Positions 7,277 through 31,309 of a DNA stretch of 31,309 nucleotides are shown here, in pieces (the first letter of the stretch is position 1; the number at the start of each line of letters is the position of its first letter). The translations under genes were made by a program, and so were the position numbers. The DNA is from a virus. Its lineage: Duplodnaviria > Caudoviricetes. The notes under the pieces are model-generated. The model made no database searches. It was not told where the DNA came from and was given only the letters and a program-made list of their open reading frames with translations. The stretch covers positions 1 to 31,309 of IMG/VR virus record IMGVR_UViG_3300032234_000470, one strand, 5' to 3'.

Positions 7277-7486
7277 TTACTTGGCGGCGAGAGCGGCTTC
7301 GTAGGCGGAATAGGCGGCTTCGTAGGCGGCGAAAGCAACAGAAAGCTCGCATCCGCTAACAAATCTTCCCTGAGAAGAAGAATCGTAGGCGGCAGAGTTG
7401 GCGCGAGCCAACTTAACAGCTTCGGCGGCGGAGTTAAGCGCGGCGAGCGCGGAGTTCATTGAGGACTTTTCGTTGGTGGTATTCAT
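7277..7486 (-). CDS. Ala-rich small early protein
   Basis: First gene after early promoter copy 1; AAYEAAYSAYEAA repeats. Confidence 0.6.
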   Translation of the reverse strand: MNTTNEKSSMNSALAALNSAAEAVKLARANSAAYDSSSQGRFVSGCELSVAFAAYEAAYSAYEAALAAK

Positions 7487-7494
7487 TGGTGGTG

Positions 7495-7563
7495 TTTGGT
7501 GGAACGAGAGTAAAGTTGGCCGAAAGGGGTCTGGGTGACAAGGTTTATTTTCGGAAATCGCAC
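7495..7563 (-). promoter_or_regulatory. repeated early promoter, copy 1
   Basis: AAAATAAACC-TTGTCA(7541-7536)-N17-CAACTT(7518-7513)-TACTCTCGTTCCACCAAA; conserved with copies 2 and 3. Confidence 0.75.
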
Positions 7564-7991
7564 GGGAGGGTTTGCCGAATAGATACGACCCTTTTGGCGT
7601 AATCGGTCAGGGGAAGCCCATTACGAATCGCTCCGCCCGGCCCCAGATTCCAGCATGCGGCCAGCTGGGCGTCGGTCGGGTAAGGGTAGCCCGCGCCTCG
7701 GAGCCGGGTGCGGATGACTTCAAGATACGCGCTCGCCATGTATTTCTGGACTGCGGAATCCCGCCATGCGTGACGCTTGTAAGTTCTGCGGCCTTGCGAC
7801 TTGAGGAGTGCGTTCGCATCCTGCCAAGCTTCCGGGTGCATCTGATACGCACCAAGCGCACGACCTCCGTCCCCTACGGCGAAGTGGTCCAATCGTGACT
7901 CAACGATTCCGATTGCCATAAGCAACATCTCATCCGATGCCTCAAGCCCGGCACAGGCAATCATCGAGTAAAGTGTGAGTGCGAGTCTCAT
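7545..7991 (-). CDS. lytic transglycosylase / lysozyme-like protein with N-terminal hydrophobic segment
   Basis: AIGIVES (catalytic Glu), AVGDGGRALGAYQM and WNLGPG. Confidence 0.85.
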   Translation of the reverse strand: MRLALTLYSMIACAGLEASDEMLLMAIGIVESRLDHFAVGDGGRALGAYQMHPEAWQDANALLKSQGRRTYKRHAWRDSAVQKYMASAYLEVIRTRLRGAGYPYPTDAQLAACWNLGPGGAIRNGLPLTDYAKRVVSIRQTLPCDFRK

Positions 7992-8692
7992 CTGAGGTTG
8001 AGCAGGATTTCATCCGGGCGGCGCGGATTGTCTTTGATGGCCTTGCCCCATTTCTTCTTGAGGTAGGCGATGCACTCGCGCTCAAGCTCCGAGGTGCGGT
8101 AGGAAACAGCACCACCCTTGTTGGAGCGATGAGCAAACTCCGCAAGGATGTTGTCAACGCGCAGGACGCGTCCGAAAGCCTCGATGTGCCGCAGGGTGTA
8201 ATCGTAGTCTTCTTTGAGGCGCATCTTCTCGTCGAACCGGATGTCGCAAGGGAACACCAGAATCATGTCTCCGACGATGAAGGCCCGGTCGCGGTAAGGC
8301 TTCTCCGGATTGTAGAAGTAGGGGTTGGAAGTCGGGGCGACTCCGCACAGCTTGGCTCCGAACTTCTGCCCGGCAGTCAGCATGTCGCGGGCCGCAGAGA
8401 TGAGCTTGACCTGTTCGGTGTCCGTTTTGCTATGGGCTTTCTTGACGCGCTTCAGGTCGTCGGACAGTTGGAGGCAGGGGAGGCCAAGGGCGAACGCGGC
8501 TTCAAGTGCGGCGTTGCGGCTCTCGCACAGCTTGCCGGACTCCACGACATTCTTTGCCCCGGCGGCGCGGTAAGCGTCCCCTTCCCCGGCGGCGACGAAC
8601 CAAGTAGCGTCGGCGACGTGCGCGTTCATCGCCGGAACCCGGTCAGGGCGGCGCGCGCTGATGATGGAGACGAAGATGTTGTTATTATTCAT
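7988..8692 (-). CDS. TET-associated (TAGT/JGT/GREB1-like) GT-A DNA-base glycosyltransferase
   Basis: IISARR, SRNAAL, LQLSDDL, LCGVAP, RFDEKMRLKEDYDYTL and NKGGA follow the motif order of TAGT/base-J glucosyltransferases. Confidence 0.82.
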   Translation of the reverse strand: MNNNNIFVSIISARRPDRVPAMNAHVADATWFVAAGEGDAYRAAGAKNVVESGKLCESRNAALEAAFALGLPCLQLSDDLKRVKKAHSKTDTEQVKLISAARDMLTAGQKFGAKLCGVAPTSNPYFYNPEKPYRDRAFIVGDMILVFPCDIRFDEKMRLKEDYDYTLRHIEAFGRVLRVDNILAEFAHRSNKGGAVSYRTSELERECIAYLKKKWGKAIKDNPRRPDEILLNLR

Positions 8693-8695
8693 GGG

Positions 8696-9064
8696 TCAAT
8701 CACGCTGGGGGCGAGAGTAGTCGTCGTCAAGCCGGATGACGTCCGTAAGGTCGGGAGTGGACACTTCAAGGAGGACGCTATCCTCCGCCGCCTCAAAACG
8801 ATGCAGGGTCGTTGCAGGGATGTGGACAGCGCGGCCCGGTAGCCATTCCATCTGGCTGTCCCTTGCCCCGTAGGTCAGGATGACCCGGCCCGACAGGAGG
8901 TAAAGCGTCTCTACCTTGCGCTCATGGTATTGCAGGGACAGTCGTTTGCCCCGGCTGACTTCAAGGAGCTTCCCGGCGTATTGGGTCTGGTCGGCATACC
9001 AGATTTCGCGGCCCCATGGCTTGACGACAATCTTGGGTTGGTAGGTAGGGTCTGGTAGGTGCAT
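8696..9064 (-). CDS. cupin, mannose-6-phosphate isomerase-like
   Basis: KPWGREIW, YAGKLL, LSLQYHERKVETLY, HIPATTLHRF and EVSTPDLTDVIRLDDDY. Confidence 0.85.
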   Translation of the reverse strand: MHLPDPTYQPKIVVKPWGREIWYADQTQYAGKLLEVSRGKRLSLQYHERKVETLYLLSGRVILTYGARDSQMEWLPGRAVHIPATTLHRFEAAEDSVLLEVSTPDLTDVIRLDDDYSRPQRD

Positions 9065-9069
9065 AAGGG

Positions 9070-9357
9070 TCAAGGGAGGAAACGGCGCGGAACCATCGAC
9101 CCAACGATTGGGCCATCAGTAGGAGCGTCGTAGGAATAGGTTATGCCTACCCAGCCGCCAGCCGCAACATAAGGTTCAATGCGAACCTCGCGGCATCCGG
9201 CCCGGTCGTAGGCATCAGCATAGAGGTCGCACAGCTTTCGGCATCGTGGTAGCGCGGTCTTGTTGGAGCAGATGTCCCCGGCCTCGATGCGGTCGTTGAC
9301 CTCAGACACATCCGCCATCAGGTGACGGAAAACGAAATGATGAGCCTGAGCGTTCAT
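9070..9357 (-). CDS. hypothetical early protein
   Basis: Start MNAQAHHF in an ATGA overlap with the upstream stop. Confidence 0.6.
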   Translation of the reverse strand: MNAQAHHFVFRHLMADVSEVNDRIEAGDICSNKTALPRCRKLCDLYADAYDRAGCREVRIEPYVAAGGWVGITYSYDAPTDGPIVGSMVPRRFLP

Positions 9358-9598: not shown

Positions 9599-9928
9599 TT
9601 AGTGGCCGGAGGATTCGAAGAAGTCATACATCAGGTCGCGAGCATACTTGTCCCAATCAAAGTAAAGCTCGCAAGGGTGGGTATGTCGCCCGTGCTTGGG
9701 GAGGTCGCCGAACAGGTCGGTCGCGTCGGCAAGCTCGTAGGCGAAGTCCCGGTCGCTCCGGTGTTCGCCGTAGTAGCTGTCGGACGCGTTCTCCAAGTCG
9801 CTCAGGGTCGGCTCGGTAATGCCGAGGTGTTCGCAGTAGGCGACCATGGCTTCCGGCTTGAGGCTGATGTCCTTGTGGGGATACAGCTCCGCGACGAGCG
9901 CGTGGAGGTCTTTTGATTTCTTAGGCAT
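9599..9928 (-). CDS. ardA: ArdA-like antirestriction (DNA mimic) protein, short form
   Basis: Acidic; DSYYGEHRSDRDFAYEL and YFDWDKYARDL match the ArdA middle and C-terminal domains. Confidence 0.75.
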   Translation of the reverse strand: MPKKSKDLHALVAELYPHKDISLKPEAMVAYCEHLGITEPTLSDLENASDSYYGEHRSDRDFAYELADATDLFGDLPKHGRHTHPCELYFDWDKYARDLMYDFFESSGH

Positions 9929-10349: not shown

Positions 10350-10550
10350 TTAGGCGTTGACCGGGCCGACATCGGCGAGGAACTGCTTGACCCCGGCGAG
10401 GGTGTATTCGCTACCGGAGGTCTGGCCGTTTCCGTTTTCGGTGGCGAAGCCGGGCTTAAGGTTAATCCAGTAAATCTTTCGACCGAAGTCCGATTCGATT
10501 TCGATGTTCTGGACAGCCGGGTGATTGTTGAGCTTTTCGAGGGTGGTCAT
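10350..10550 (-). CDS. hypothetical early protein
   Basis: First gene after early promoter copy 2. Confidence 0.7.
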   Translation of the reverse strand: MTTLEKLNNHPAVQNIEIESDFGRKIYWINLKPGFATENGNGQTSGSEYTLAGVKQFLADVGPVNA

Positions 10551-10562
10551 TTGTATGTTGGG

Positions 10563-10636
10563 TTTGGTGGAACGAGAGTAACCTTGCCCGATGAACCGAC
10601 CGGGCGAAAGGTTTATTTTCGGGTCGAGTGCGATTT
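10563..10636 (-). promoter_or_regulatory. repeated early promoter, copy 2
   Basis: AAAATAAACC-TTTCGC-N17-CAAGGT-TACTCTCGTTCCACCAAA. Confidence 0.75.
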
Positions 10637-10691
10637 AGGGGTTTGGTCGATACAGTATCGGTTTAGGCCGGGCTTCCGGGAGGCCTGTTTT

Positions 10692-10721
10692 ACCCCTCTG
10701 GCAAGCCCGTGGAGGCCTTTT
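10692..10721 (+). repeat. 30-bp dispersed intergenic element, copy A
   Basis: ACCCCTCTGGCAAGCCCGTGGAGGCCTTTT; 27/30 identical to the reverse complement of 22388-22417. Confidence 0.8.
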
Positions 10722-11776: not shown

Positions 11777-12064
11777 TTAGGCGGTAATCAGGCCCATCTT
11801 GATGGCCTTCTTGCGGCACTTCGTGCAGGTGATATCGCTGAAGGAGTAGTTGCCATTGGCATGAGCACGAGCGTTGAAAGCGTCGGAGCCGCAGGTCGTG
11901 TGTAATCCGGTCTTGTGAAGCTGGCCGTCGTTCTTCTTGAACTCCATCGTGTAAATGATGTGAAGCTCAGAGCCGCGTCCGGCGCGTCCGACATTAAAAG
12001 TCCGCTTGATGTCGTGCTCGACAGTAACGAATTCTTTGTTGGTGTTGATTTCGGTGGTGGTCAT
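11777..12064 (-). CDS. hypothetical early protein, possible Zn-binding
   Basis: First gene after promoter copy 3; H...CG...ITCTKC. Confidence 0.65.
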   Translation of the reverse strand: MTTTEINTNKEFVTVEHDIKRTFNVGRAGRGSELHIIYTMEFKKNDGQLHKTGLHTTCGSDAFNARAHANGNYSFSDITCTKCRKKAIKMGLITA

Positions 12065-12075
12065 TTGTGGTGTGG

Positions 12076-12150
12076 TTTGGTGGAACGAGAACAACCTTGC
12101 CCGAACCTCCGACTCAACGAAAGGTTTATTTTGGGGTCTAAGTGCGATTT
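12076..12150 (-). promoter_or_regulatory. repeated early promoter, copy 3
   Basis: AAAATAAACC-TTTCGT-N17-CAAGGT-TGTTCTCGTTCCACCAAA. Confidence 0.75.
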
Positions 12151-12206
12151 ATGGGTTTAGCGAATACAGGCTCTACTGCGACCGAGGCCCGGCTACCCCC
12201 AAAAAG

Positions 12207-13656: not shown

Positions 13657-15177
13657 TTAGGCAAGGCGCGCACCGATGCGGTAGTTCAATCCGCCGATGG
13701 CAACGATGATATCGTTTGAGTCGGATCCGCCCGTATGGGTCGTGACGCTGTTGACGGAGAAGGCAGGGCCGGCTCCGTTGGAGAAGGTGTCCGCCTTGAC
13801 GTTGCCGACGACCTCGACCTTGGAGGTAGGCGTGAAGCCAGTAGCGACGCCGATGCCGACGTTGCCAGCATTGTCGATGATGAAGGCGTTGGCATCCGGG
13901 GTCGTGGAGTCCTCGACGAGAAGAGCGTTGCCCGTGCCGTTCTGAGTTACGCGCAAGGCTGGGAGGGTCGTATTTACATTGATAACCCCGGCCGAGGAGG
14001 TGCTTAGGCATTGTCTCCAAGCACCCGTTCCGTCACGGAAATTGAGGCTGACTCCGCCCGTGGCAATCCACATATCTCCGGCGACGTTGCTTCCCGTCTC
14101 GTTTCCGCCGATGCCGATGTTGATGCCAGCGCGGGAGGTGTTGGCGGTGAAAGAAACCTTGTTTGAGAAAGTCTGCTGTGTTGCTCCTGAAGAGAGTTGT
14201 GCGTAGTTGGTAAGTGCAGAAGGAATGTCTTGAAACTTGACCAGACGGTCAATCGTGTCATCGGCTGTGGCTACCCAGAAGTTGCCCGTGCCATCAGTCC
14301 AGATTTGACCAAGCAACGCCCCCCCTGCGTTTGGCGGTCCACCGGGTAGAATAAGTTTCCCTAAACCATCAAAGGAAACATTCCCGGTGAACGTAGGGCC
14401 AGAAAGAGGAGCGTAAGCCGACAGCGCGGAGGTCGTGGCGTATCCCTGACCCTTGACGAAGGCAGTCGTGGCGATGCTGGTGTCATTATCACCAAGCGAA
14501 GGCGTAACGGCACGAGCGTCTCCCGTGAACACAGGCGAAGCAAGCGGAGCGGCACCAGAGACGTCGGCTACGACAAGCGATACGGCCCCGATTTTGCCAG
14601 CCACCGAGGTTACGGGGGCGGTGGTCAGGTATCCCTGACCCTTGACGAAGGCCGTCGTGGCGATGCTCGTATCGTTGTCCGCCAACGGAGGAGTGACTGA
14701 CCTAGGATTGCCCGTCAAGACCGGGTCAAATAGCGGAGCGTAATTCTGGAGGGAAATAACCGGAGCGTAATTCTGCCCCCTGACCCAAGCGGTCGTGGCA
14801 ATGCTGGTGTCATTGTCCGAGAGCGAAGGCGTGACCGAACGAGGGTCGCCCGTGAACACAGGCGAGGAAAGATTAGCCTTCAGGTTCAGCGCCGACTGCA
14901 AATCCGTCTGGTCAGACAGCGTCCCGGTGATTTCGCCCCAAGAGGTCGAGGGGTCTACGTTAATCCATTCGGTGTTGTAGTCTACGCCGTCGACCTTGGC
15001 GAGTACCTGACCCGCGCTACCGCCGACGGGAACGCCGACACCGGGTTCCCCTTGGTCGCCCTTGTCACCCTTTTCTCCGGGGATGCCTTGCGGTCCTTGG
15101 GGGCCGGGTGCGCCGAGGGTGAACACCATCGACCCGGTGGGCGATGCGGGAGTTAGGACAAGCTCGATATTAGCCAT
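13657..15177 (-). CDS. tail fibre protein
   Basis: Collagen-like GXY stretch, WGEITGTLSDQTDL, three TGxPRxVTPxxxDNDTSIATTA repeats, VTSVAGKIGAV and GNVGIG. Confidence 0.85.
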   Translation of the reverse strand: MANIELVLTPASPTGSMVFTLGAPGPQGPQGIPGEKGDKGDQGEPGVGVPVGGSAGQVLAKVDGVDYNTEWINVDPSTSWGEITGTLSDQTDLQSALNLKANLSSPVFTGDPRSVTPSLSDNDTSIATTAWVRGQNYAPVISLQNYAPLFDPVLTGNPRSVTPPLADNDTSIATTAFVKGQGYLTTAPVTSVAGKIGAVSLVVADVSGAAPLASPVFTGDARAVTPSLGDNDTSIATTAFVKGQGYATTSALSAYAPLSGPTFTGNVSFDGLGKLILPGGPPNAGGALLGQIWTDGTGNFWVATADDTIDRLVKFQDIPSALTNYAQLSSGATQQTFSNKVSFTANTSRAGINIGIGGNETGSNVAGDMWIATGGVSLNFRDGTGAWRQCLSTSSAGVINVNTTLPALRVTQNGTGNALLVEDSTTPDANAFIIDNAGNVGIGVATGFTPTSKVEVVGNVKADTFSNGAGPAFSVNSVTTHTGGSDSNDIIVAIGGLNYRIGARLA

Positions 15178-23942: not shown

Positions 23943-23957
23943 CTACGCGGGAGTCAA
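23943..23957 (-). promoter_or_regulatory. conserved late element, copy 4
   Basis: Exact 15-mer; contains the TGA stop of the S49 gene. Confidence 0.85.
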
Positions 23958-25360
23958 GCGACTCCCTTGGAGCGGTTCTTTTTGACCGAACCCTTGTTGT
24001 GCTTGGAGTCCGTCTCGACAGCTTTCTCGCCGGAGTCATTCTCGTCATCCGCGTCGTCCTTGGACTTGTCCTCGTCGGGCTTGTCCTCGCCGTCCGGCTG
24101 AGGTTCGGTACCCTCGTCGTCCTCGGATTTCTTCTCGTCTTCTTCGTCCTCGGATTCGGGCTTCTCGTCGTCGTCAGACTTGGACTCGGGCTTTTCCTCT
24201 TCGTCCTCCTCCTTCGGCTCCTCGTCGTCGCCTTCGGACTTCTTTTCGTCCTCTTCTTCCTCGTCCTTGGGCTTGTCTTCGTCGTCAGACTTGGACTTCT
24301 TTTCCTCGTCTTCGTCTTCGGATTTCTTTTCTTCGTCCTCGTCTTCAGACTTCTTGTCCTCGTCTTCGTCCTCGGCGGACAGCTTAATCTTCAGGCCGGA
24401 GAGGGCGCGGGAAGCCGCAGTAGCCCGAAGCTTCTTGAGGGCCATGGCCTCTTCTTCTTCGCCATCCTCTTCGGAGGAAGCACCCATCTCGTCTCCGTGA
24501 CGCTTGTCGTTTTCCTCGTCGGACTCGACCTGAGCAAACACAGCGGCATCAAGCTCCTTGAGCATTTCGTCAAAGCCATTGGTCAGGGACGTAACAAGCC
24601 CGGCTTCCGCGCCGCGCTTGCCGGAGAACATCTGGCCTTCCATCGAGCTGTCCTCGACGAAGGAACGGACGGACTTCACCGCCTCCTTGAAGTCGGCGTG
24701 GATGTCCTCGACTTCCTGCTGAAGCATCTTGCGCTGGTTTTCGTCAAGAGACGTTCCGGGGATTCCCGCACCCTTGTAGGTGCCGGACTTGATGACGTCC
24801 ATCTTGACCCCTTCCATCTTGAAAGCTTCCGAGCAGTCAGGGAAGGCGATATACACGCCGATTGAGCCTACGGACGAAGAAGGGGTCGCGTAGAACTTGG
24901 AGGCCTGAGAGCCAAGCCAATAGGCCGCGGAACAGCATTCGTTGCCCGTGAAAGAGATGACCTCCTTGGAGCAATTCTTGATGCGGTTGGCGAGTTCAGG
25001 GACACCTACCGACGTGCCGCCGGGAGAGTCGATGTCAAGAATGATGGTCTTGATGGAGGTGTCGCGTTCGCACTCCTCAAGCATTTCCTCGATGTCGCGG
25101 ATGTCGCAACAGCCGCAAAGCGACTCAAGCTCGGACAGGTTCTTGCCGATGACACCCTTGACCGGGATGATGGCGAAGGGAGGGAACTTTTCGAGCGTCG
25201 GCTTCTCGCCGAAAATTGCGGAAAGCATGTCGCCCATGTCGGACATCTTCGCGTCCATGGGGATTTCCATGTCGCCGACCCGGTTGAGGTAGGCCTCAGC
25301 CTGAGCAGGCTGGATGAGGAGAGGGCGCTGGCCCTTGAAGTCCTTGGAGAGATTACGCAT
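23954..25360 (-). CDS. S49-family head maturation protease with long D/E/K tail
   Basis: LDIDSPGG, CSAAYWLGSQ, VGSIGVY and IKSGTYK; start MRNLSK overlaps the portal end. Confidence 0.92.
   Translation of the reverse strand: MRNLSKDFKGQRPLLIQPAQAEAYLNRVGDMEIPMDAKMSDMGDMLSAIFGEKPTLEKFPPFAIIPVKGVIGKNLSELESLCGCCDIRDIEEMLEECERDTSIKTIILDIDSPGGTSVGVPELANRIKNCSKEVISFTGNECCSAAYWLGSQASKFYATPSSSVGSIGVYIAFPDCSEAFKMEGVKMDVIKSGTYKGAGIPGTSLDENQRKMLQQEVEDIHADFKEAVKSVRSFVEDSSMEGQMFSGKRGAEAGLVTSLTNGFDEMLKELDAAVFAQVESDEENDKRHGDEMGASSEEDGEEEEAMALKKLRATAASRALSGLKIKLSAEDEDEDKKSEDEDEEKKSEDEDEEKKSKSDDEDKPKDEEEEDEKKSEGDDEEPKEEDEEEKPESKSDDDEKPESEDEEDEKKSEDDEGTEPQPDGEDKPDEDKSKDDADDENDSGEKAVETDSKHNKGSVKKNRSKGVA
23990..24380 (-). 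repeat. low-complexity coding repeats (KKSEDEDEE-like)
   Basis: Degenerate tandem repeats visible in both DNA and protein. Confidence 0.85.
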
Positions 25361-26933
25361 TGGAGTTGTTTTGAGAGTCGTCAGGGAATGGGGTGAATGA
25401 TTCCTGCTCAGGGGCAGGACTGTTTCCGAGCGTCTGGTCGATGTCCGCCGGATTGTTGGAAGGCTGGTAAATGGAGGAAACCGGAACATTGAACTCCGTC
25501 GCGGTTTCTTGGATGAGCTTGGCATCTGCGGCCCGGCGGCGGATTTCCTCGCGAGGGTCCATGCCAAGCTCGGAGAAGTGGTCGGACAGGGTCTTGAGTC
25601 CCATAGCGATGTCCTTCTGGTTGGCGGCAGATTCGCGTCCGGCATCGACGGTCACGCGGCGCGGAGTGACCCAATTGACCTTATACCATTCGTCGTTGGC
25701 AGGGAGGTCGCCTCTGGCGATGGCGTTGCCGATGACGTAGCCCCAGACCGGGGTAAGGAAGCGCGTCATGAACATGTGCTGGCGAGCGCCGAAGTGGCGT
25801 TCTGCCTTGCTGACGACGAGACGGATGGCCGCGCCACCGATTCCATTAGGGTCTGCCGTGAACTGATAGGGAAGGACTCCCGCGGTGGAATCTTTCTGGA
25901 GATGCTCGATGAAACCCGTGAAGCTGGCGTTCGGACGCTGGCTCTGGAAGCTCTCGAGCTTTTCACCCGGCGCAAGGGAGAGAATCTTTCCTCCGATAAA
26001 GGCTCCGACCTGTTCGGGATTATCGTAAACGCCGTTCGGGTAATCCTGCGGGCGCATACCGAAGGCTTGGAAGTCAGAAACACTACCGTCAAACTGCGGA
26101 TTCTCGCGAGTGATGGTGCGAGTGATGTCCGAGGCGGTCTTGACGGCAAGCTTCTCCATCGACAGAATCTCAAGGATGTCGATGAGGTTGTTGATGCTGT
26201 GTTGCATCGGCGAGTATGCTCGCGCGCCGGAGACATTCTCCGGATGATGCAGATGGAGCATCGAATTGGACGGAATAAGGCGCGTAGTGCCGTCGCTACG
26301 GATGACGTTGTATCCGACGACCGCGCCGTATTTGTTGAACATGATGCCGTCGAACATTCCTTCCGGTGCGCCCATGGCCGCGGCAGAAGTGCCAACCCGG
26401 TGAGATTCGATTAACTGAATCTTGGCTACTCCGTCAGGGGAGAAGGTCTTGAGGACGAACATTTCCCCGTCAACATCCACCTTTCGGCAGGCAATCTGCT
26501 GGCATTCCCAGAAGTTAAACCGCCCGGTGATGTCGCAAGGCTTGTTGGCCCAATCGAGGAAGTAATGCTCCGCAAGCGCGTTCCAAGTCTGGTCTTTGCT
26601 CGCGGCCTGACCACGGATGCCATCGCCGATGGCATACATGACATTGTCAGAAATCATCTGACGGATGAGGCCGGAGTTGACCGCCAGCCAGCGCATCTTG
26701 CGCGTCAGCTCTTGGCGGTCGAAGACCGTCATCACCTTCTTCTGGTCGGCGGGCCACGGAGTGTTGACCCATTGACGCTTGTTGGAATACTTCGCGCCTT
26801 CAAACTGAGAGAAGATGCCCGAACCTCCGCCGCCGAATCCGTCGGCCATGGTCTTCAGTCCCTTCTTGCGGGCATACGCCTTAACATCGGCGACAGCTTT
26901 GCGGACTTGGGACTTGGTAAGTTTCTTAGGCAT
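25353..26933 (-). CDS. portal protein, lambda family
   Basis: DRQELTRKMRWLAVNSG, VDGEMF, QLIESHRV, DGIMFNKYG, LAPGE and VDAGRE. Confidence 0.92.
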   Translation of the reverse strand: MPKKLTKSQVRKAVADVKAYARKKGLKTMADGFGGGGSGIFSQFEGAKYSNKRQWVNTPWPADQKKVMTVFDRQELTRKMRWLAVNSGLIRQMISDNVMYAIGDGIRGQAASKDQTWNALAEHYFLDWANKPCDITGRFNFWECQQIACRKVDVDGEMFVLKTFSPDGVAKIQLIESHRVGTSAAAMGAPEGMFDGIMFNKYGAVVGYNVIRSDGTTRLIPSNSMLHLHHPENVSGARAYSPMQHSINNLIDILEILSMEKLAVKTASDITRTITRENPQFDGSVSDFQAFGMRPQDYPNGVYDNPEQVGAFIGGKILSLAPGEKLESFQSQRPNASFTGFIEHLQKDSTAGVLPYQFTADPNGIGGAAIRLVVSKAERHFGARQHMFMTRFLTPVWGYVIGNAIARGDLPANDEWYKVNWVTPRRVTVDAGRESAANQKDIAMGLKTLSDHFSELGMDPREEIRRRAADAKLIQETATEFNVPVSSIYQPSNNPADIDQTLGNSPAPEQESFTPFPDDSQNNSNA

Positions 26934-26939
26934 AAACTC

Positions 26940-27206
26940 TTATAGACCTCGGAAGTTCCAGAGTCCATTGTAAACACGGACTCGGTCGATTGCTCCATAT
27001 TGGGCCGGGTCTTTGATTTGAAGCGCGTATCGGCATTCAATCAGAGTCGTCTGGATGTCCATCGGGAAGGACTTGGTCACCGAAGTGCCGGAATCCGTGT
27101 AGCTCATCATGGTCTTCCCCTCCATCAAGAGGCTTGCGGCCTTGTCAGCAATAGCCTCAATGCGAGCTTGAGATAGGATTAGAAAGCACCCGGTTGCCTG
27201 AGCCAT
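26940..27206 (-). CDS. head-tail joining (gpW-position) protein
   Basis: 88 aa between terminase and portal. Confidence 0.65.
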   Translation of the reverse strand: MAQATGCFLILSQARIEAIADKAASLLMEGKTMMSYTDSGTSVTKSFPMDIQTTLIECRYALQIKDPAQYGAIDRVRVYNGLWNFRGL

Positions 27207-27210
27207 AACC

Positions 27211-27225
27211 CTACGCGGGAGTCAA
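27211..27225 (-). promoter_or_regulatory. conserved late element, copy 5
   Basis: Exact 15-mer, 4 nt before ATG 27206. Confidence 0.85.
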
Positions 27226-27336
27226 AATGGAAGGCCCATCCCTTGACCATGTTGGCAGAGGGGATGGGTGCCGCCTCCGAAACCCATGCCCGAGCAAAGG
27301 AGGTGCGAGTTCAGTCTGACTGCCGGGATTGAAGTG

Positions 27337-29160
27337 TCAAGCCTCCGTCTCGCCGGAAGATTCCTTTTCCTCCGGCGCAACGACGTCATCAGGCTTTCCC
27401 GTAAGCCGCCAAGCCAAGGCCGGGAGGATGCAGATGACCTCGCAATCCCAGAAGTGATTGTCCTTTGAGCCGATTTGCTCCCAGAATGGCTTTCCGTTCG
27501 TGGCGATTGTTCTCTTCTCTGACTTCATCTGGTCGCGGTATTCATCCGAGACATCCTTGGGAATCATATGCTTGCCGCGCTTGATGAGCGCCGCCAGCAC
27601 GTCTTTCAGGCGCAGATTGGAGAAGTAGAATCGCTTCACGCGCTTACTTCCGACAGCTTCGACCACCGGGGCAGAGTAAGGCCGCAGTTCCGTCTTGAGG
27701 CCGACCGGGGTCTTGACCCTCCAAGCGAACTCGTTGCGCTGGTCGCCACGGGTAGCCACCCAGCCGTTAGCCGCACATGCCTGAAGCACCTCGTCTGGCT
27801 GGTAGCCTGAGTCGATGAAGACATTGGCCGGGTGGACTTGGTATTTCTTGTGGGCCTCGGCCAGCTGTGACCAAGAGAAGCAGTAACCGCAGTCAACAAG
27901 ACGGGAGCGTCCGTCGCCAGACCATCCTCGGATGACCCAATAGAAACCGCGCTTCTGCACGTCCACTCCCATGAACCGCATGCGCACAAAATCAGGCTCG
28001 GCCCGCATTTCCGGCGTGATTAGGTGGAAGGCCGTCGGGTGTCCCTTTACGAATCCGCCCTCCTGCTCCCAATCCGCACCCATGGCGAAATCGCCCGGCG
28101 CGGCATCGGTCTTTATCTCATCCGGCTGTTCTTCGAACTTTTCTGCGAGCCGTTTTTGGATGAAGATACGCAGAGGCTCCTCGTCGCCGTATTCCTCGAT
28201 GGATTCTTTGGCTTTGATTAGCATCACGGCCAGCTCACCCCAGCTCATCGTCGCGATGCTGTTCCAATGAAGGCCGATGTAGCTTGAGTTGCTGGACGCT
28301 TTTGTTGATACGAATTTACCCGCGGCGTTGGCTTCAAGACGGGTTGCGTTGGTGTCTGGAAGCTTCGTCTTGCAGGAAACACACTCGTAGGTAGTCCCGT
28401 GCGCAACCTTGAGCAGATTCCATTCCTCATTAACCTTTGCGTCTTCCGGAAACTTTACCTGTGACCAGACCCAAGGCTGAAGATGCCCGCAGGAAGGACA
28501 GCACATATTCCAATCCCGCATGTCCGTGGACTCATGTAGCTGGTGAAACTCCTGCCCGTCTTGACCACCCTGCGACATGAAGATGCGCTTGCCCATCCAA
28601 CCGAACGCCGTCACGCGCGCGCTCGCTTCGGCCAAGTGTCCGGGCGGAGCCATCCAACACTCGTCCGCGATGACGTAACGCAACGAAAGTCGCTGAAGGT
28701 TTGTCTCGTTGTGGATTCCGCGACAATAGATTGTCATGCGGTCAAAGTCAGAAGTCGTCGAACGCTCCATGTCGTCGTTCTTGAACTTTGCTTTCACCGG
28801 CGGGCAATTGTTCCAAACCGGGCGAAGGTATCGGATAGAGAAGTCTTTAGCCTCTGCATCCGTAGCCTGAAGCACCATGGTCGGGCCGGGTTGGTTCGCG
28901 ATGACGTAGCAGGAAAACAAACGGGCGAGCAAAGATTTGCCGGACTGAATGCTGGCAAGGATTGTCAGCAAGCGCGTCTCCGGGTCAGCCGCGATGCGCA
29001 AGGCCTCGGCAATCCACGGAGTGCGCTCCGCCCGGAACGGGCCGGGCATCGGCGAGTCAGGGATGGCGTTGACGTTATCCTCAAGCCATTGAACAATGTC
29101 TCCGGAGTAGGCTGGCTTCATGACGGTCTTGCCGACCTTTATCAGTTCAGCCTTATTCAT
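27337..29160 (-). CDS. terminase large subunit, lambda gpA family
   Basis: PGPFRAERTPW, QSGKS Walker A, IADE Walker B, CPSCGH and CVSC, GVDVQ, IDSGY and NHFWDC. Confidence 0.95.
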   Translation of the reverse strand: MNKAELIKVGKTVMKPAYSGDIVQWLEDNVNAIPDSPMPGPFRAERTPWIAEALRIAADPETRLLTILASIQSGKSLLARLFSCYVIANQPGPTMVLQATDAEAKDFSIRYLRPVWNNCPPVKAKFKNDDMERSTTSDFDRMTIYCRGIHNETNLQRLSLRYVIADECWMAPPGHLAEASARVTAFGWMGKRIFMSQGGQDGQEFHQLHESTDMRDWNMCCPSCGHLQPWVWSQVKFPEDAKVNEEWNLLKVAHGTTYECVSCKTKLPDTNATRLEANAAGKFVSTKASSNSSYIGLHWNSIATMSWGELAVMLIKAKESIEEYGDEEPLRIFIQKRLAEKFEEQPDEIKTDAAPGDFAMGADWEQEGGFVKGHPTAFHLITPEMRAEPDFVRMRFMGVDVQKRGFYWVIRGWSGDGRSRLVDCGYCFSWSQLAEAHKKYQVHPANVFIDSGYQPDEVLQACAANGWVATRGDQRNEFAWRVKTPVGLKTELRPYSAPVVEAVGSKRVKRFYFSNLRLKDVLAALIKRGKHMIPKDVSDEYRDQMKSEKRTIATNGKPFWEQIGSKDNHFWDCEVICILPALAWRLTGKPDDVVAPEEKESSGETEA

Positions 29161-29749
29161 CCTTTGAAAGCTCCGTGCGGATTCTCAGCGACCAAGCCTC
29201 AAGAGCCTTAACCGCCTTTGCCGGGTTCTCCGGGTTGCATGCCTCGGCGACGTCCAAGGCCAGCTTGTCTAATCTGTTAACGAATTCACTCGCAAGCTTC
29301 CGCATGGCTTCCGACGCATCGGAGGCCCGGATGTATTCCCGGTTCATCAGCGCGAGCCTGTCCGCCTCTGCCTTCAACTTGGTGAGGGTGTTGACGGTCT
29401 TATCGTAGGACGCGTAGAGCCGGGACTGCTGAGGGGAGCCGGACTTGACCGCCTTGATGTATTGGTTGCGCGAAATCTGAACAAGGATGCGCTGTCTCTC
29501 TACGATGGAGTCGAAGGTCTCCAGCACAGTCTGTGGAGCCTTTTCTTCGACCTCCTCGGCGGGTTCCTCCCCCGGTGCGGCATCGAGCTTGTAATCGCCC
29601 GGTGCGATGCCTGTCGTCAGGTGGCGTTGCGCCCTCCACTTCTCCGCCTCCTCAACGCTGTCCAGCGGCATCCCCTCAGACACAAGCTGGGAGATGCGGC
29701 CCGGAGAAAGCTCCCACCTTTCGGCGAGCGTCTTTTGGCTGACGGCCAT
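29153..29749 (-). CDS. terminase small subunit, Nu1-like
   Basis: N-terminal HTH SQKTLAERWELSPGRISQLVSEGMP; overlaps the large subunit start. Confidence 0.85.
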   Translation of the reverse strand: MAVSQKTLAERWELSPGRISQLVSEGMPLDSVEEAEKWRAQRHLTTGIAPGDYKLDAAPGEEPAEEVEEKAPQTVLETFDSIVERQRILVQISRNQYIKAVKSGSPQQSRLYASYDKTVNTLTKLKAEADRLALMNREYIRASDASEAMRKLASEFVNRLDKLALDVAEACNPENPAKAVKALEAWSLRIRTELSKDE

Positions 29750-30570
29750 CAGGCGGTCTTGTTTCGTTTCTTCAATTCAACCTCGGCGCGCTTTGCCCGG
29801 ATGCGGGAAATCTCGTCCTTCGGCATCTCGCAGTTCCACATCTGTTGGAGGCTGTAAAAGACCACAGTATATCGGACGGCATCCTCAGACAGCTTGCGGA
29901 TAGGGGTCACTCCGTGAAGGTAGGACTGTCCGTCAAACAAGGTAAGACTGCCGTGCGTACACTTCAAACACAGGTCAAGCTCCGGAAGGGCAAGGTATCC
30001 GCCCTCAATGTTCTTCTTGAACGCGAACATGGCCGACCACACATTCTTGTAGTTGCCCGCGTCGAAGTGATACTTCAAGGGGTTGTTGTGGTTGATGATG
30101 CCACTCGTGAACATTGACTTACCGATTCGGTATCCGGCCAGCACCTTCTCCTCGGTCAGCTGGAGATGAGTTTCCGCGAGGGACGGGTTGTATGCGTGAT
30201 AGTATTTCGCGGCCACCTCGGCGAATCGCTGAACCACGTCACTCTCGTTAGGTTGCTCGGCGGCGATGGACGCGGCCCGGCAAGGATGATTGCGGACGAC
30301 ATTACGCGGCGCGTATCCGAAGATGCGGCTCGTCGTAAGCAATCCGTTGCTTCGGTAGTTCTTGGAGTAGTTGACCCGGCCCAAGGCCTCGACGAACTCA
30401 CGCATGTCCTCGTCCACCTTGGCGATATAGACCAGAACAATCTGGTCGCCCAAGTAAACGATGGTGTTCTCGTCAATCAGCGTGGAGCCGTCCTCCGGCT
30501 TCGCGGAGCGAGACTTATATTCCTTGAGATTAATCTCCCTGAACTTGGCGTGTATTGACTTGATAGCCAT
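29749..30570 (-). CDS. TET/JBP-family 2OG-Fe(II) dioxygenase
   Basis: SRIFGYAPR, FTSGIIN, YHFDAGN (HxD), GGYLALPE, FDGQSYLHGVTP (distal H) and RYTVVFY (2OG Arg); likely start MAIKS at 30570. Confidence 0.88.
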   Translation of the reverse strand: MAIKSIHAKFREINLKEYKSRSAKPEDGSTLIDENTIVYLGDQIVLVYIAKVDEDMREFVEALGRVNYSKNYRSNGLLTTSRIFGYAPRNVVRNHPCRAASIAAEQPNESDVVQRFAEVAAKYYHAYNPSLAETHLQLTEEKVLAGYRIGKSMFTSGIINHNNPLKYHFDAGNYKNVWSAMFAFKKNIEGGYLALPELDLCLKCTHGSLTLFDGQSYLHGVTPIRKLSEDAVRYTVVFYSLQQMWNCEMPKDEISRIRAKRAEVELKKRNKTA

Positions 30571-31195
30571 TGGATTCCAGAAGATGGTTAACGACCTCAG
30601 CGTTGTTTGCAAGGCCGAACTTGTCGGCGTAGTCCGCGAGCGCGTCAATGACCGCGTTGTATTCCTCCATGCCGTAAACGAGGATAATCTGCCGAATGAT
30701 GGATTTGTCGTAGTCACCCTTGCGCTCGCTGATGCTCTTGCCGCGCTCCTCGCCGTCAGAGGTCAACTGCTCTACGTCACCCACATCGGTGATGAGATAA
30801 CCAAGGTCACTTTCGTCGAAGCCGATGAGCGACAGGTCGATTTCCCCGGCCTCCTGAATGGCAAGCAGTTCGGCCTTCAGGATGTCCGCGTCCCACCCGG
30901 CGTTCAGGGCAAGCTTGTTGTCCGCAAGCACATAGGCGCGCATCTGCGAGGGAGACAGGTGACTGAGAGTAATAGTCGGCACCTCAGTCATGCCAAGTTT
31001 AGTAGCCGCCGCAAGTCTGCCATGCCCGGCGATGACAGTTAAATCTTCTTGGATGAGGATGGGGTTGTTAAACCCAAACTCCTCGATGGATTTTGCAAGC
31101 TGTGCGACTTGCTCCTCGGAGTGCGTTCGCGCGTTGTTGGCATAGGGTTTGAGTGACGCGACTGCGGTGATTTTGATTTCGAATTTCTGGCTCAT
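30530..31195 (-). CDS. ParB/Srx N-terminal domain protein
   Basis: LKPYANNARTH, SIEEFGFNNPILI, IAGHGRLAAA and ADNKLALNAGWD; no methylase domain fused. Confidence 0.9.
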   Translation of the reverse strand: MSQKFEIKITAVASLKPYANNARTHSEEQVAQLAKSIEEFGFNNPILIQEDLTVIAGHGRLAAATKLGMTEVPTITLSHLSPSQMRAYVLADNKLALNAGWDADILKAELLAIQEAGEIDLSLIGFDESDLGYLITDVGDVEQLTSDGEERGKSISERKGDYDKSIIRQIILVYGMEEYNAVIDALADYADKFGLANNAEVVNHLLESNGYQVNTRQVQGD

Positions 31196-31309
31196 GGACG
31201 TGGTGGAGTTTAGGTTTGATGTTTTTTGCTAAAATGGTGCGTATTTCGGGCAGACGCGCACTCTGCGGAGCGTCCCCCCGAGGGGTTAAAAGATTCCTTA
31301 ACCGGGGTG

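What the first reader, a model, noticed from the sequence alone, without database searches (positions are those of the whole stretch)
29749..31195. ParB plus TET/JBP dioxygenase wired into the terminase operon: oxidase half of a split DNA-hypermodification system
Seen: the complete HxD...H...R TET/JBP motif set; a 41-nt overlap with the ParB-like gene; a TGATG coupling to the small terminase. Known: TET/JBP enzymes hydroxylate 5mC or T, and phage versions occur with ParB proteins, glycosyltransferases and often C5-methyltransferases. Here no methyltransferase is recognisable in 31 kb and the ParB lacks its usual methylase fusion. Inference: the substrate may be thymine (giving 5hmU and a base-J-like product) or host-installed 5mC, and modification may be tied to packaging.
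Basis: partly seen in the sequence, partly recalled or inferred. Interest (0 to 1): 0.85.

Follow-up and report, generated by a model that had tools for sequence, protein, structure and literature searches.

The report
Phage thymine oxidase with remote partner
A bacterial virus carries, just ahead of its DNA-packaging genes, a two-gene unit that likely oxidises thymine in its own DNA, plus a far-off gene that likely adds a sugar; this kind of system was shown in the lab in 2026, though this branch of the enzyme family appears untested.

Summary
30570-29749 encodes a 273-aa TET/JBP dioxygenase (Pfam E 3e-15, TET fold, HxD/H/R intact), overlapping a ParB gene by 41 nt and joined by TGATG to the small terminase. 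The system is largely known: O'Toole 2026 (PMC13229309) showed ParB-dependent phage thymine dioxygenases, and cultured actinophages have the same pre-terminase layout. This scan also noted the kind earlier, in another genome.

Thymine is the likely substrate. No C5-methyltransferase was found here or in 36 records carrying or related to this enzyme. In two complete relatives, a 5hmU-DNA-kinase-like gene replaces the glycosyltransferase at 7988-8692, so the 'split' reading gains support.

Packaging coupling is weak. TGATG also occurs in TET-less relatives, and 12 of 14 near-complete relatives have the terminase but no TET.

What is new:
(1) The enzyme belongs to the Nigel-gp2 clade, which lacks the insert essential in the tested enzymes.
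(2) The tailoring slot is remote and swappable.
(3) GATC is purged in TET-bearing relatives (1 site against about 142 expected) but normal in the closest TET-less kin. This is unexplained and may reflect the host.

Verdict: new variant of a known kind, interest 0.4.

The parts
30530..31195 (-). ParB-like protein, 221 aa: N-terminal ParB domain, helical segment, disordered linker, small C-terminal domain, no HTH seen; likely activator of the dioxygenase
   Evidence: PF02195 E 1.3e-6; model domains 1-95, 103-135, linker 138-155 with pLDDT<50, helices 176-208; C-terminal IRQI motif conserved in 22 aligned ParBs; lies within 2.6 kb upstream of the TET in 32 of 35 loci, the other 3 cut short
29749..30570 (-). 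TET/JBP 5-methylpyrimidine dioxygenase, 273 aa, Nigel-gp2 clade; H168/D170/H219/R233; 26-aa extension after the last conserved Cys (C247); 'variable insert' reduced to about 7 aa
29153..29749 (-). Terminase small subunit, translationally coupled by TGATG; neighbour, not shown to be part of the modification system
   Evidence: phrog_57 E 6e-11; 81-85% identical in TET-less G044/G045
27337..29160 (-). Terminase large subunit (lambda gpA type); neighbour
   Evidence: PF05876 and PF20454
7988..8692 (-). TAGT-like GT-A glycosyltransferase, 234 aa; likely tailoring enzyme for the hydroxymethyl base; sits in a swappable slot
   Evidence: PF20691 E 0.004, below cut-off; phrog_842 E 1e-8; 42-44% identical to the GT directly after a same-clade TET in L011; a TET-like gene lies within three genes in 6 of 7 non-identical loci
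8696..9064 (-). Cupin (mannose-6-phosphate-isomerase C-terminal-like), travels with the GT in the slot; possibly sugar supply or modification (inferred)
   Evidence: Cupin_2 E 1e-7, MannoseP_isomer E 8e-7; present with the GT in L043, L044, L059 and absent from the kinase and second-GT slots
7545..7991 (-). Lytic-transglycosylase-like gene, downstream boundary of the tailoring slot (not part of the system)
   Evidence: SLT E 0.004; used as anchor
9070..9357 (-). Small conserved gene, upstream boundary of the tailoring slot (not part of the system)
   Evidence: homologues flank the slot in most relatives; no Pfam or PHROG hit

Best explanation
The ParB and TET/JBP genes likely form a ParB-activated thymine dioxygenase that would turn some thymines of replicated phage DNA into 5-hydroxymethyluracil, which the glycosyltransferase at 7988-8692 would then sugar-coat into a base-J-like base, most likely to blunt host nucleases. 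Shown: the fold, the iron and 2-oxoglutarate ligands, the gene layout, no C5-methyltransferase in the contig or in complete relatives, and the exchange of the distant slot between two glycosyltransferase types and a 5hmU-kinase-like gene. Inferred: thymine as substrate (about 0.75), the need for ParB (about 0.65), the GT acting on the product (about 0.7), and the defence role. The place ahead of the terminase is likely a cassette site that gives expression around the time DNA is packaged, not a physical link to the motor.
For: Tet_JBP hit, invariant HxD/H/R and TET fold. ParB anatomy matches the activator type described in PMC13229309: NBD, helix segment, linker, CTD, no DNA-binding domain. 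The C-terminal extension that marks ParB-dependent enzymes is present, 22-43 aa in 93 of 93 aligned sequences. No PF00145 in 0 of 36 records, 7 of them >=90% complete. In this phage family the C5-methyltransferase occurs only in TET-less genomes (3 of 14). The same-clade enzymes of cultured phages Nigel and Wooper sit beside PF18751 5hmU-DNA-kinase genes, and Wooper also has an amino-acid:DNA transferase; these enzymes are characterised on 5hmU DNA (PMC8989533). Both TET-bearing complete relatives carry a kinase of that type in the GT's slot, and none of the 12 TET-less ones carries such a kinase (11 of 35 relatives have PF18751; hhalign to Nigel gp3 97.7%). A TAGT hit occurs in 13 of 36 records.
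Against: No biochemical test exists for this clade in what I could read. It lacks the variable insert (about 7 aa in 93 of 93) whose replacement by a linker abolished activity in the tested enzymes (26-32 aa in 5mYOX185/176, counted by eye). Several tested cognate pairs gave 0-2% 5hmU, and purified enzymes oxidised 5mC about as well as T. TAGT genes also occur in 3 TET-less relatives, so a TAGT does not prove a TET partner, and the window GT scores below the Pfam cut-off. The kinase itself misses PF18751. The TET-bearing complete genomes are close kin, so the slot pattern rests on few independent events (quick tree).
Confidence: 0.58

Rival explanations
1. ParB-TET makes 5hmU, but the GT at 7988-8692 is an unrelated passenger that acts on another acceptor, and the DNA stays at plain 5hmU.
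For: The GT lies 21 kb away in a variable gene region. TAGT genes occur without TET in G044, G045 and G052. It is absent from both complete TET-bearing relatives.
Against: Its nearest non-identical relatives lie within three genes of a TET-like gene in 6 of 7 loci. L011 has ParB-TET-GT contiguous with 42% identity to both window proteins. The slot holds a tailoring-type gene in all 3 TET-bearing near-complete genomes (window, G001, G006) and in 0 of 12 TET-less ones.
Confidence: 0.17
2. The physiological substrate is 5-methylcytosine laid down by a host methyltransferase, giving glycosyl-5hmC.
For: Tested phage T-dioxygenases also oxidise 5mC in vitro. The GT matches a T-even hydroxymethylcytosine glucosyltransferase family (phrog_842). 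The host is unknown.
Against: The partner kinases are of the 5hmU-DNA-kinase family. Same-clade enzymes occur in phages of very different GC and terminase type with no C5-methyltransferase. C/G-only six-base palindromes are more avoided than T-containing ones in the window (O/E 0.26 vs 0.56), though TET-less G042 and G052 show that bias too.
Confidence: 0.12
3. The module is mechanically tied to packaging: ParB-TET docks on the terminase or marks the DNA for cutting or filling.
For: A large terminase lies within 2 kb downstream in 30 of 35 loci, across unrelated terminase types. The idea is in print as a hypothesis (PMC8256090 and PMC4738411 passages).
Against: 12 of 14 near-complete relatives have the terminase but no TET. 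The same site holds ParB-fusion plus TAGT (G044, G045), an N6/N4 methyltransferase (G053), or no such gene (G042, G052, G056, G062). TGATG is shared with those cassettes. L011 and L031 have no terminase match in 10 kb downstream.
Confidence: 0.07
4. The insert-less clade has another chemistry, such as demethylating 6-methyladenine (as fungal CcTet does) or acting on RNA.
For: CcTet chains, one bound to 6mA DNA, are among the top fold matches. GATC, the usual adenine-methylation site, is purged in TET-bearing relatives. The insert is missing.
Against: The neighbours are hydroxymethylpyrimidine-tailoring enzymes (TAGT, 5hmU kinase, AADT). TET2 and NgTet1 score as high as or higher than CcTet. 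GATC is normal in Nigel, Wooper and 6 of 22 other loci.
Confidence: 0.06

Closest known systems
ParB-dependent phage thymine dioxygenases, Clade C1, e.g. 5mYOX176/ParB176 (O'Toole et al. 2026, PMC13229309)
   Same: Tet_JBP enzyme with a neighbouring ParB that has NBD and CTD but no DNA-binding domain; no adjacent C5-methyltransferase; C-terminal extension after the last conserved Cys; terminases (19%), GTs (31%) and ParBs (27%) reported as commonest neighbours.
   Different: The window enzyme lacks the long variable insert. Five motifs of its clade occur in 0 of 12 supplementary files. C1-like proteins align at only 18-22%. The tailoring gene is not adjacent.
Mycobacteriophage Nigel gp1-gp3 and Gordonia DR-cluster / Rhodococcus Tonitrus genes 1-5 (ParB, Tet-like JBP, aGPT-Pplase2, 5hmU kinase, terminase)
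   Same: Same enzyme clade (30-35% identity, short insert); ParB then TET directly ahead of the terminase; described in print as a predicted thymidine hypermodification system (PMC11955845, PMC9302106).
   Different: There the tailoring genes are in the operon and use the kinase/amino-acid route. Here the tailoring gene is 21 kb away and is a glycosyltransferase. GATC is not purged in the 7.6-kb Nigel and Wooper stretches. Nigel gp2 and gp3 are mis-annotated as queuine tRNA-ribosyltransferase and small terminase.
Phage C5-MT/TET/GT 5mC hypermodification clusters, Clades A/B (Burke et al. 2021, PMC8256090; Pyle et al., bioRxiv 2023.12.21.572611)
   Same: TET/JBP oxidase feeding a GT-A glycosyltransferase.
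   Different: They need a cognate C5-methyltransferase within five genes; none is present here or in 36 records.
Trypanosome JBP1/2 plus JGT (base J)
   Same: Predicted chemistry: thymine to 5hmU to glycosyl-5hmU.
   Different: Eukaryotic, no ParB; the sugar and linkage here are unknown. No JBP sequence was compared directly.

Membership tests
TET/JBP 5-methylpyrimidine dioxygenases (PF12851) | Tet_JBP profile above the curated cut-off | tested here: met
   56.2 bits against a cut-off of 34.9, E 3.2e-15
TET/JBP 5-methylpyrimidine dioxygenases (PF12851) | HxD...H iron ligands and the 2-oxoglutarate Arg on a TET-type double-stranded beta-helix | tested here: met
   H168, D170, H219, R233 invariant in 93 of 93; top fold matches TET2, NgTet1, CMD1 at Z 19-20, above FTO/AlkB at <=15.9
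ParB-dependent T-dioxygenases (Clade C1) | Adjacent ParB with NBD and CTD, no DNA-binding domain | tested here: met
   no HTH Pfam hit at E<=0.01; CTD resembles the tested ParBs by eye
ParB-dependent T-dioxygenases (Clade C1) | No neighbouring C5-methyltransferase | tested here: met
ParB-dependent T-dioxygenases (Clade C1) | C-terminal extension beyond the last conserved Cys | tested here: met
   26 aa after C247, helical in the model; 22-43 aa in 93 of 93
ParB-dependent T-dioxygenases (Clade C1) | Variable insert (vi) domain, essential in the tested enzymes | tested here: not met
   7 residues between R73 and S81 in 93 of 93; long inserts in C1-like proteins of alignment A4 and 26-32 aa in 5mYOX185/176 counted by eye
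ParB-dependent T-dioxygenases (Clade C1) | Placement inside Clade C1 in a tree or similarity network with the tested enzymes | not tested
   the paper's sequences were compared by eye and by motif search only; the three C1-like proteins held align at 18-22%, which points to a separate clade
ParB-dependent T-dioxygenases (Clade C1) | T to 5hmU activity that rises with the cognate ParB | not testable with these tools
   needs co-expression and LC-MS
Phage 5mC-dioxygenase clusters (Clades A/B) | Cognate C5-methyltransferase near the TET gene | tested here: not met
   0 of 36 records, 0 of 7 near-complete; none in the window or in the gap-filling ORFs
TET-associated glycosyltransferases (PF20691), for 7988-8692 | Profile above cut-off; GT-A acidic motif; TET neighbourhood | tested here: inconclusive
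   17.5 bits against 27.5; D78 invariant and D79 nearly so in 17 aligned GTs, several above cut-off; relatives beside TET in 6 of 7 loci
5hmU DNA kinase family (PF18751), for the relative's slot gene P0123 | Profile match or homology to members | tested here: inconclusive
   no direct hit; 11 of 35 relatives carry PF18751; hhalign to Nigel gp3 probability 97.7, E 2.3e-12

The most novel reading that the evidence does not exclude
An untested, insert-less clade of ParB-activated thymine dioxygenases feeds a remote, exchangeable tailoring slot, so sister phages put either a sugar (a phage base J) or a phosphate (no amino-acid transferase found, so possibly a terminal 5-phosphomethyluracil) on the same 5hmU handle; and the modification itself makes GATC a liability, for example by leaving it unprotected or by hindering host adenine methylation, so that total GATC loss is a genome-wide footprint of the system.
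Probability: 0.2. Interest if true: 0.65.

Novelty: new variant of a known kind. Interest (0 to 1): 0.4.

Why it matters
The kind of system is established, so the locus itself is not a surprise. It matters in three smaller ways. First, its enzyme clade is common (829 hits; 102 GenBank phage records, many mis-annotated) and lacks the insert thought to govern ParB dependence, so it directly tests the 2026 model. Second, the swap of GT and kinase at one remote slot shows that neighbourhood mining within a few genes misses tailoring partners, and it offers a candidate for a phage-made glycosyl-5hmU. Third, the GATC purge gives a testable link between the modification and host restriction.

Tried and rejected
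Complex prediction of TET with ParB gave 'no answer'; it is not used for or against binding. A sequence search of the PDB found no relative; the fold search did. The phrog_6059 label 'queuine tRNA-ribosyltransferase' was rejected as a propagated mis-annotation, since fold and motifs are TET-type. The longer GTG start at 30717 was rejected: close relatives start at the ATG and are 273 aa. A hidden methyltransferase in the missing 3.2 kb was rejected from L035 and G001. An amino-acid:DNA transferase was sought in the kinase-bearing genomes with PF18724 and PF18723 and not found (0 of 5 records each; PF18746 was not searched on its own). One mutational route for GATC loss was rejected: replacements are mixed (AATC 54, GACC 28, CATC 26, GAGC 14 of 176 sites). 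The promoter and terminator scan of 26900-31309 gave chance-level counts. The host search by large terminase found only matches of about 25%, plus one 30-residue match. The careful terminase tree did not finish; the quick tree was used. Iyer et al. 2013 was not held. The supplement of PMC8256090 could not be read, so its Clade D enzymes may include insert-less members that were tested without ParB.
Full report
What the window is. The window is the whole held record: a 31,309-bp phage contig without terminal repeats, with its genes on the minus strand. Pfam and PHROG identify a lambda-type terminase, portal, protease, capsid, helicase, recombination genes and an ArdA-like protein among 52 ORFs scanned. 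The contig is cut inside the helicase at one end and just above ParB at the other. A near-identical record, L035, spans both ends and shows about 3.2 kb missing. The host is unknown.

Observation. The ORF 30570-29749 is a 273-aa TET/JBP protein: Pfam E 3.2e-15, H168-x-D170, H219 and R233, all invariant in 93 aligned sequences (the query and 92 of the 120 listed hits, of 829 found). The model is confident (pLDDT 92.7) and matches NgTet1, TET2, CMD1 and CcTet ahead of FTO and AlkB. The 41-nt overlap with ParB and the TGATG junction with the small terminase are exact. Neither is unusual: 16 of 40 junctions counted overlap by 1-8 nt, and TGATG precedes the small terminase in three TET-less relatives as well.

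What is already known. O'Toole et al. 2026 (PMC13229309; I read main-text parts 1-5 of 7 and the Discussion, Dataset S11 whole, half of Dataset S2, and ran term searches over 12 supplements; figures not seen) show that phage TET/JBP enzymes lying next to a ParB oxidise thymine to 5hmU, up to 35% of T in E. coli, and need the ParB. That ParB has an N-terminal nucleotide-binding domain and a C-terminal dimer domain but no DNA-binding domain. Only 6% of surveyed pathways had a C5-methyltransferase; 19% had terminases and 31% glycosyltransferases. The window ParB has that anatomy, and the TET has the C-terminal extension that marks the ParB-dependent class. The layout ParB-TET-(tailoring)-terminase is present in cultured phages Nigel and Wooper. 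It is described as a predicted modification system for CaiB (PMC9302106, one passage) and Tonitrus (PMC11955845, main text). The packaging idea is in print as a hypothesis (PMC8256090, parts 1-2 of 6 and passages; PMC4738411, passages). Iyer et al. 2013 I know only from those citations and recall.

Where this enzyme differs. It groups by sequence with Nigel gp2 and Wooper gp2 (30-33%) and aligns at only 18-22% with C1-like proteins. The 'variable insert', whose replacement by a linker abolished activity in the tested enzymes, is 7 residues in 93 of 93 aligned sequences against 26 and 32 in 5mYOX185 and 176 (counted by eye). Five motifs of this clade occur in none of the 12 supplementary files. 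Paper searches for a biochemical test of this clade found none. The library lacks most subscription journals, and the supplement of Burke 2021, with its inactive Clade D enzymes, could not be read. So it works like a ParB-dependent T-dioxygenase, but I do not file it as a member of Clade C1.

Substrate. PF00145 finds nothing in the window, in the gap-filling ORFs, or in 36 records, 7 of them at least 90% complete (35 are the TET loci, one a kinase-bearing relative). Among 14 near-complete relatives of this phage, 2 have the TET and 3 others have a C5-methyltransferase; none has both. Same-clade enzymes in Nigel and Wooper sit next to PF18751 kinases, and Wooper has an amino-acid:DNA transferase; these enzyme types were characterised on 5hmU DNA (PMC8989533, passages). 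Against this, tested enzymes also oxidise 5mC in vitro, so host 5mC cannot be excluded.

The split system. The gene at 7988-8692 is a weak TAGT match (E 0.004, below cut-off). It is 42% identical to the GT that directly follows a same-clade TET in L011. Of 10 loci found for it, 3 are identical copies in close kin; 6 of the other 7 have a TET-like gene within three genes (3 confirmed by Pfam, 3 by blastp). Its position, just before the lytic transglycosylase gene, is a slot. The window and three fragments hold cupin plus GT. Three fragments hold a second TAGT type above cut-off (two scanned). G001, G006 and two fragments hold a 176-aa P-loop kinase, whose relatives carry PF18751 in 11 of 35 cases and which aligns to Nigel gp3 at 97.7% probability, though it misses the profile itself. 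None of the 12 TET-less near-complete genomes has a GT or kinase in the slot, and none has the kinase anywhere. Limits: the TET-bearing genomes are close kin; the fragments' TET status is not seen; and three TET-less genomes carry a different, strong TAGT near the terminase, so a TAGT alone does not imply a TET partner. No amino-acid:DNA transferase was found in the kinase genomes with two of the profiles.

Packaging. ParB lies within 2.6 kb upstream in 32 of 35 loci (the profile was built partly from these loci) and a large terminase within 2 kb downstream in 30 of 35, so the position is conserved. But 12 of 14 near-complete relatives have the terminase and no TET. The closest TET-less ones, G044 and G045 (large terminase 89% and 85%, same well-supported branch in a quick tree), have a ParB-fusion plus TAGT at the same site. 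G053 has an N6/N4 methyltransferase there, and G042, G052, G056 and G062 show no such gene before the small terminase. This reads as a cassette site for DNA-modifying genes expressed with the packaging operon. That it sets timing is inference; no physical link is shown.

An unexplained footprint. GATC occurs once in the window against about 142 expected, and not at all in G001, G006 or the stretches held of G003, G014 and G015. It is at O/E 1.03-1.10 in G044 and G045 and 0.42-1.07 in the other ten TET-less genomes (three whole, seven from 13-20 kb stretches). Of 102 family loci, 11 have O/E below 0.1, all in the window/G001 group; the other 91 are at 0.39 or more. In the wider TET clade, 14 of 22 loci of at least 9 kb are at or below 0.1, 2 are intermediate and 6 are at 0.56-0.82; the Nigel and Wooper stretches are normal. 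Replacements are mixed, which fits selection against the site. The simplest cause is a host with a GATC-cutting enzyme that the thymine mark does not block; the TET-less sisters may be protected by their own cassette or use another host. Flodman 2019 (PMC6449724, passages) reports that MboI and Sau3AI still partly cut thymine-hypermodified DNA and that Dam methylates it only partly, which is compatible with this. One paper search for such a link found nothing relevant. Many loci are kin, so the number of independent cases is small.

Mechanism and odds. Most likely, ParB and TET are made with the packaging operon; ParB activates the Fe(II)/2-oxoglutarate enzyme on double-stranded DNA; a share of thymines becomes 5hmU; and the GT, perhaps helped by the cupin, adds a sugar that hinders host nucleases. 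Structure, layout and co-occurrence are shown; each chemical step is inferred. Overall 0.58. Rivals: plain 5hmU with an unrelated GT 0.17, host 5mC 0.12, true packaging coupling 0.07, other chemistry 0.06.

Verdict. Real, largely explained, and a new variant of a known kind. The value lies in the untested insert-less clade, the remote swappable slot and the GATC purge. Interest 0.4.

Noticed in passing
window 1-31309 (single site at 13724): GATC is almost absent (1 against about 142 expected); CTAG, GTAC and many six-base palindromes such as GGCGCC, GAGCTC and ACCGGT are also strongly avoided.
   Followed up: partly
L181:3124-4843 (G044) and L182:900-2550 (G045): Close relatives carry, at the ParB-TET position, a ParB N-terminal domain fused to another conserved domain plus a strong TAGT (E 1e-38), with no TET; their GATC content is normal. 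Acceptor base unknown.
   Followed up: partly
L037:12109-12639 (G001): 5hmU-DNA-kinase-like gene with no amino-acid:DNA transferase found in the complete genome by two profiles; the 87-115 aa ORF just before it has no useful family hit.
   Followed up: partly
L010:3400-4107, L012:635-1318, L030:259-612, L031:11055-11543: FkbM-type methyltransferases (PF05050) sit next to same-clade TET genes, suggesting an O-methyl tailoring route; L017 and L019 have a different small P-loop protein between ParB and TET.
   Followed up: no
L035:2617-3123 (the part missing from the window): Pyrimidine-dimer-glycosylase-like gene (PF03013) three genes above ParB; a look-alike is seen by eye in TET-less G044 too.
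   Followed up: no
window 9599-9928: ArdA-like anti-restriction protein (Pfam E 4e-7) two genes above the tailoring slot.
   Followed up: no
window 7988-8692: The GT is 100% identical in three other records whose neighbouring genes are 83-99% identical, which may mean a recent spread.
   Followed up: no
L052:776-2382 (phage Nigel, NC_011044): RefSeq names gp2 'queuine tRNA-ribosyltransferase' and gp3 'terminase small subunit'; Pfam gives Tet_JBP and Ploopntkinase3. PHROG families 6059 and 800 appear to carry the same wrong labels.
   Followed up: yes
window 23954-24600: The head maturation protease has a long, very acidic, repetitive C-terminal tail.
   Followed up: no
window 10525-10720 and 12041-12170: Related non-coding-looking stretches recur (also near 7447-7565 and in the missing part), seen as repeated blastn matches; possibly regulatory elements.
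   Followed up: no
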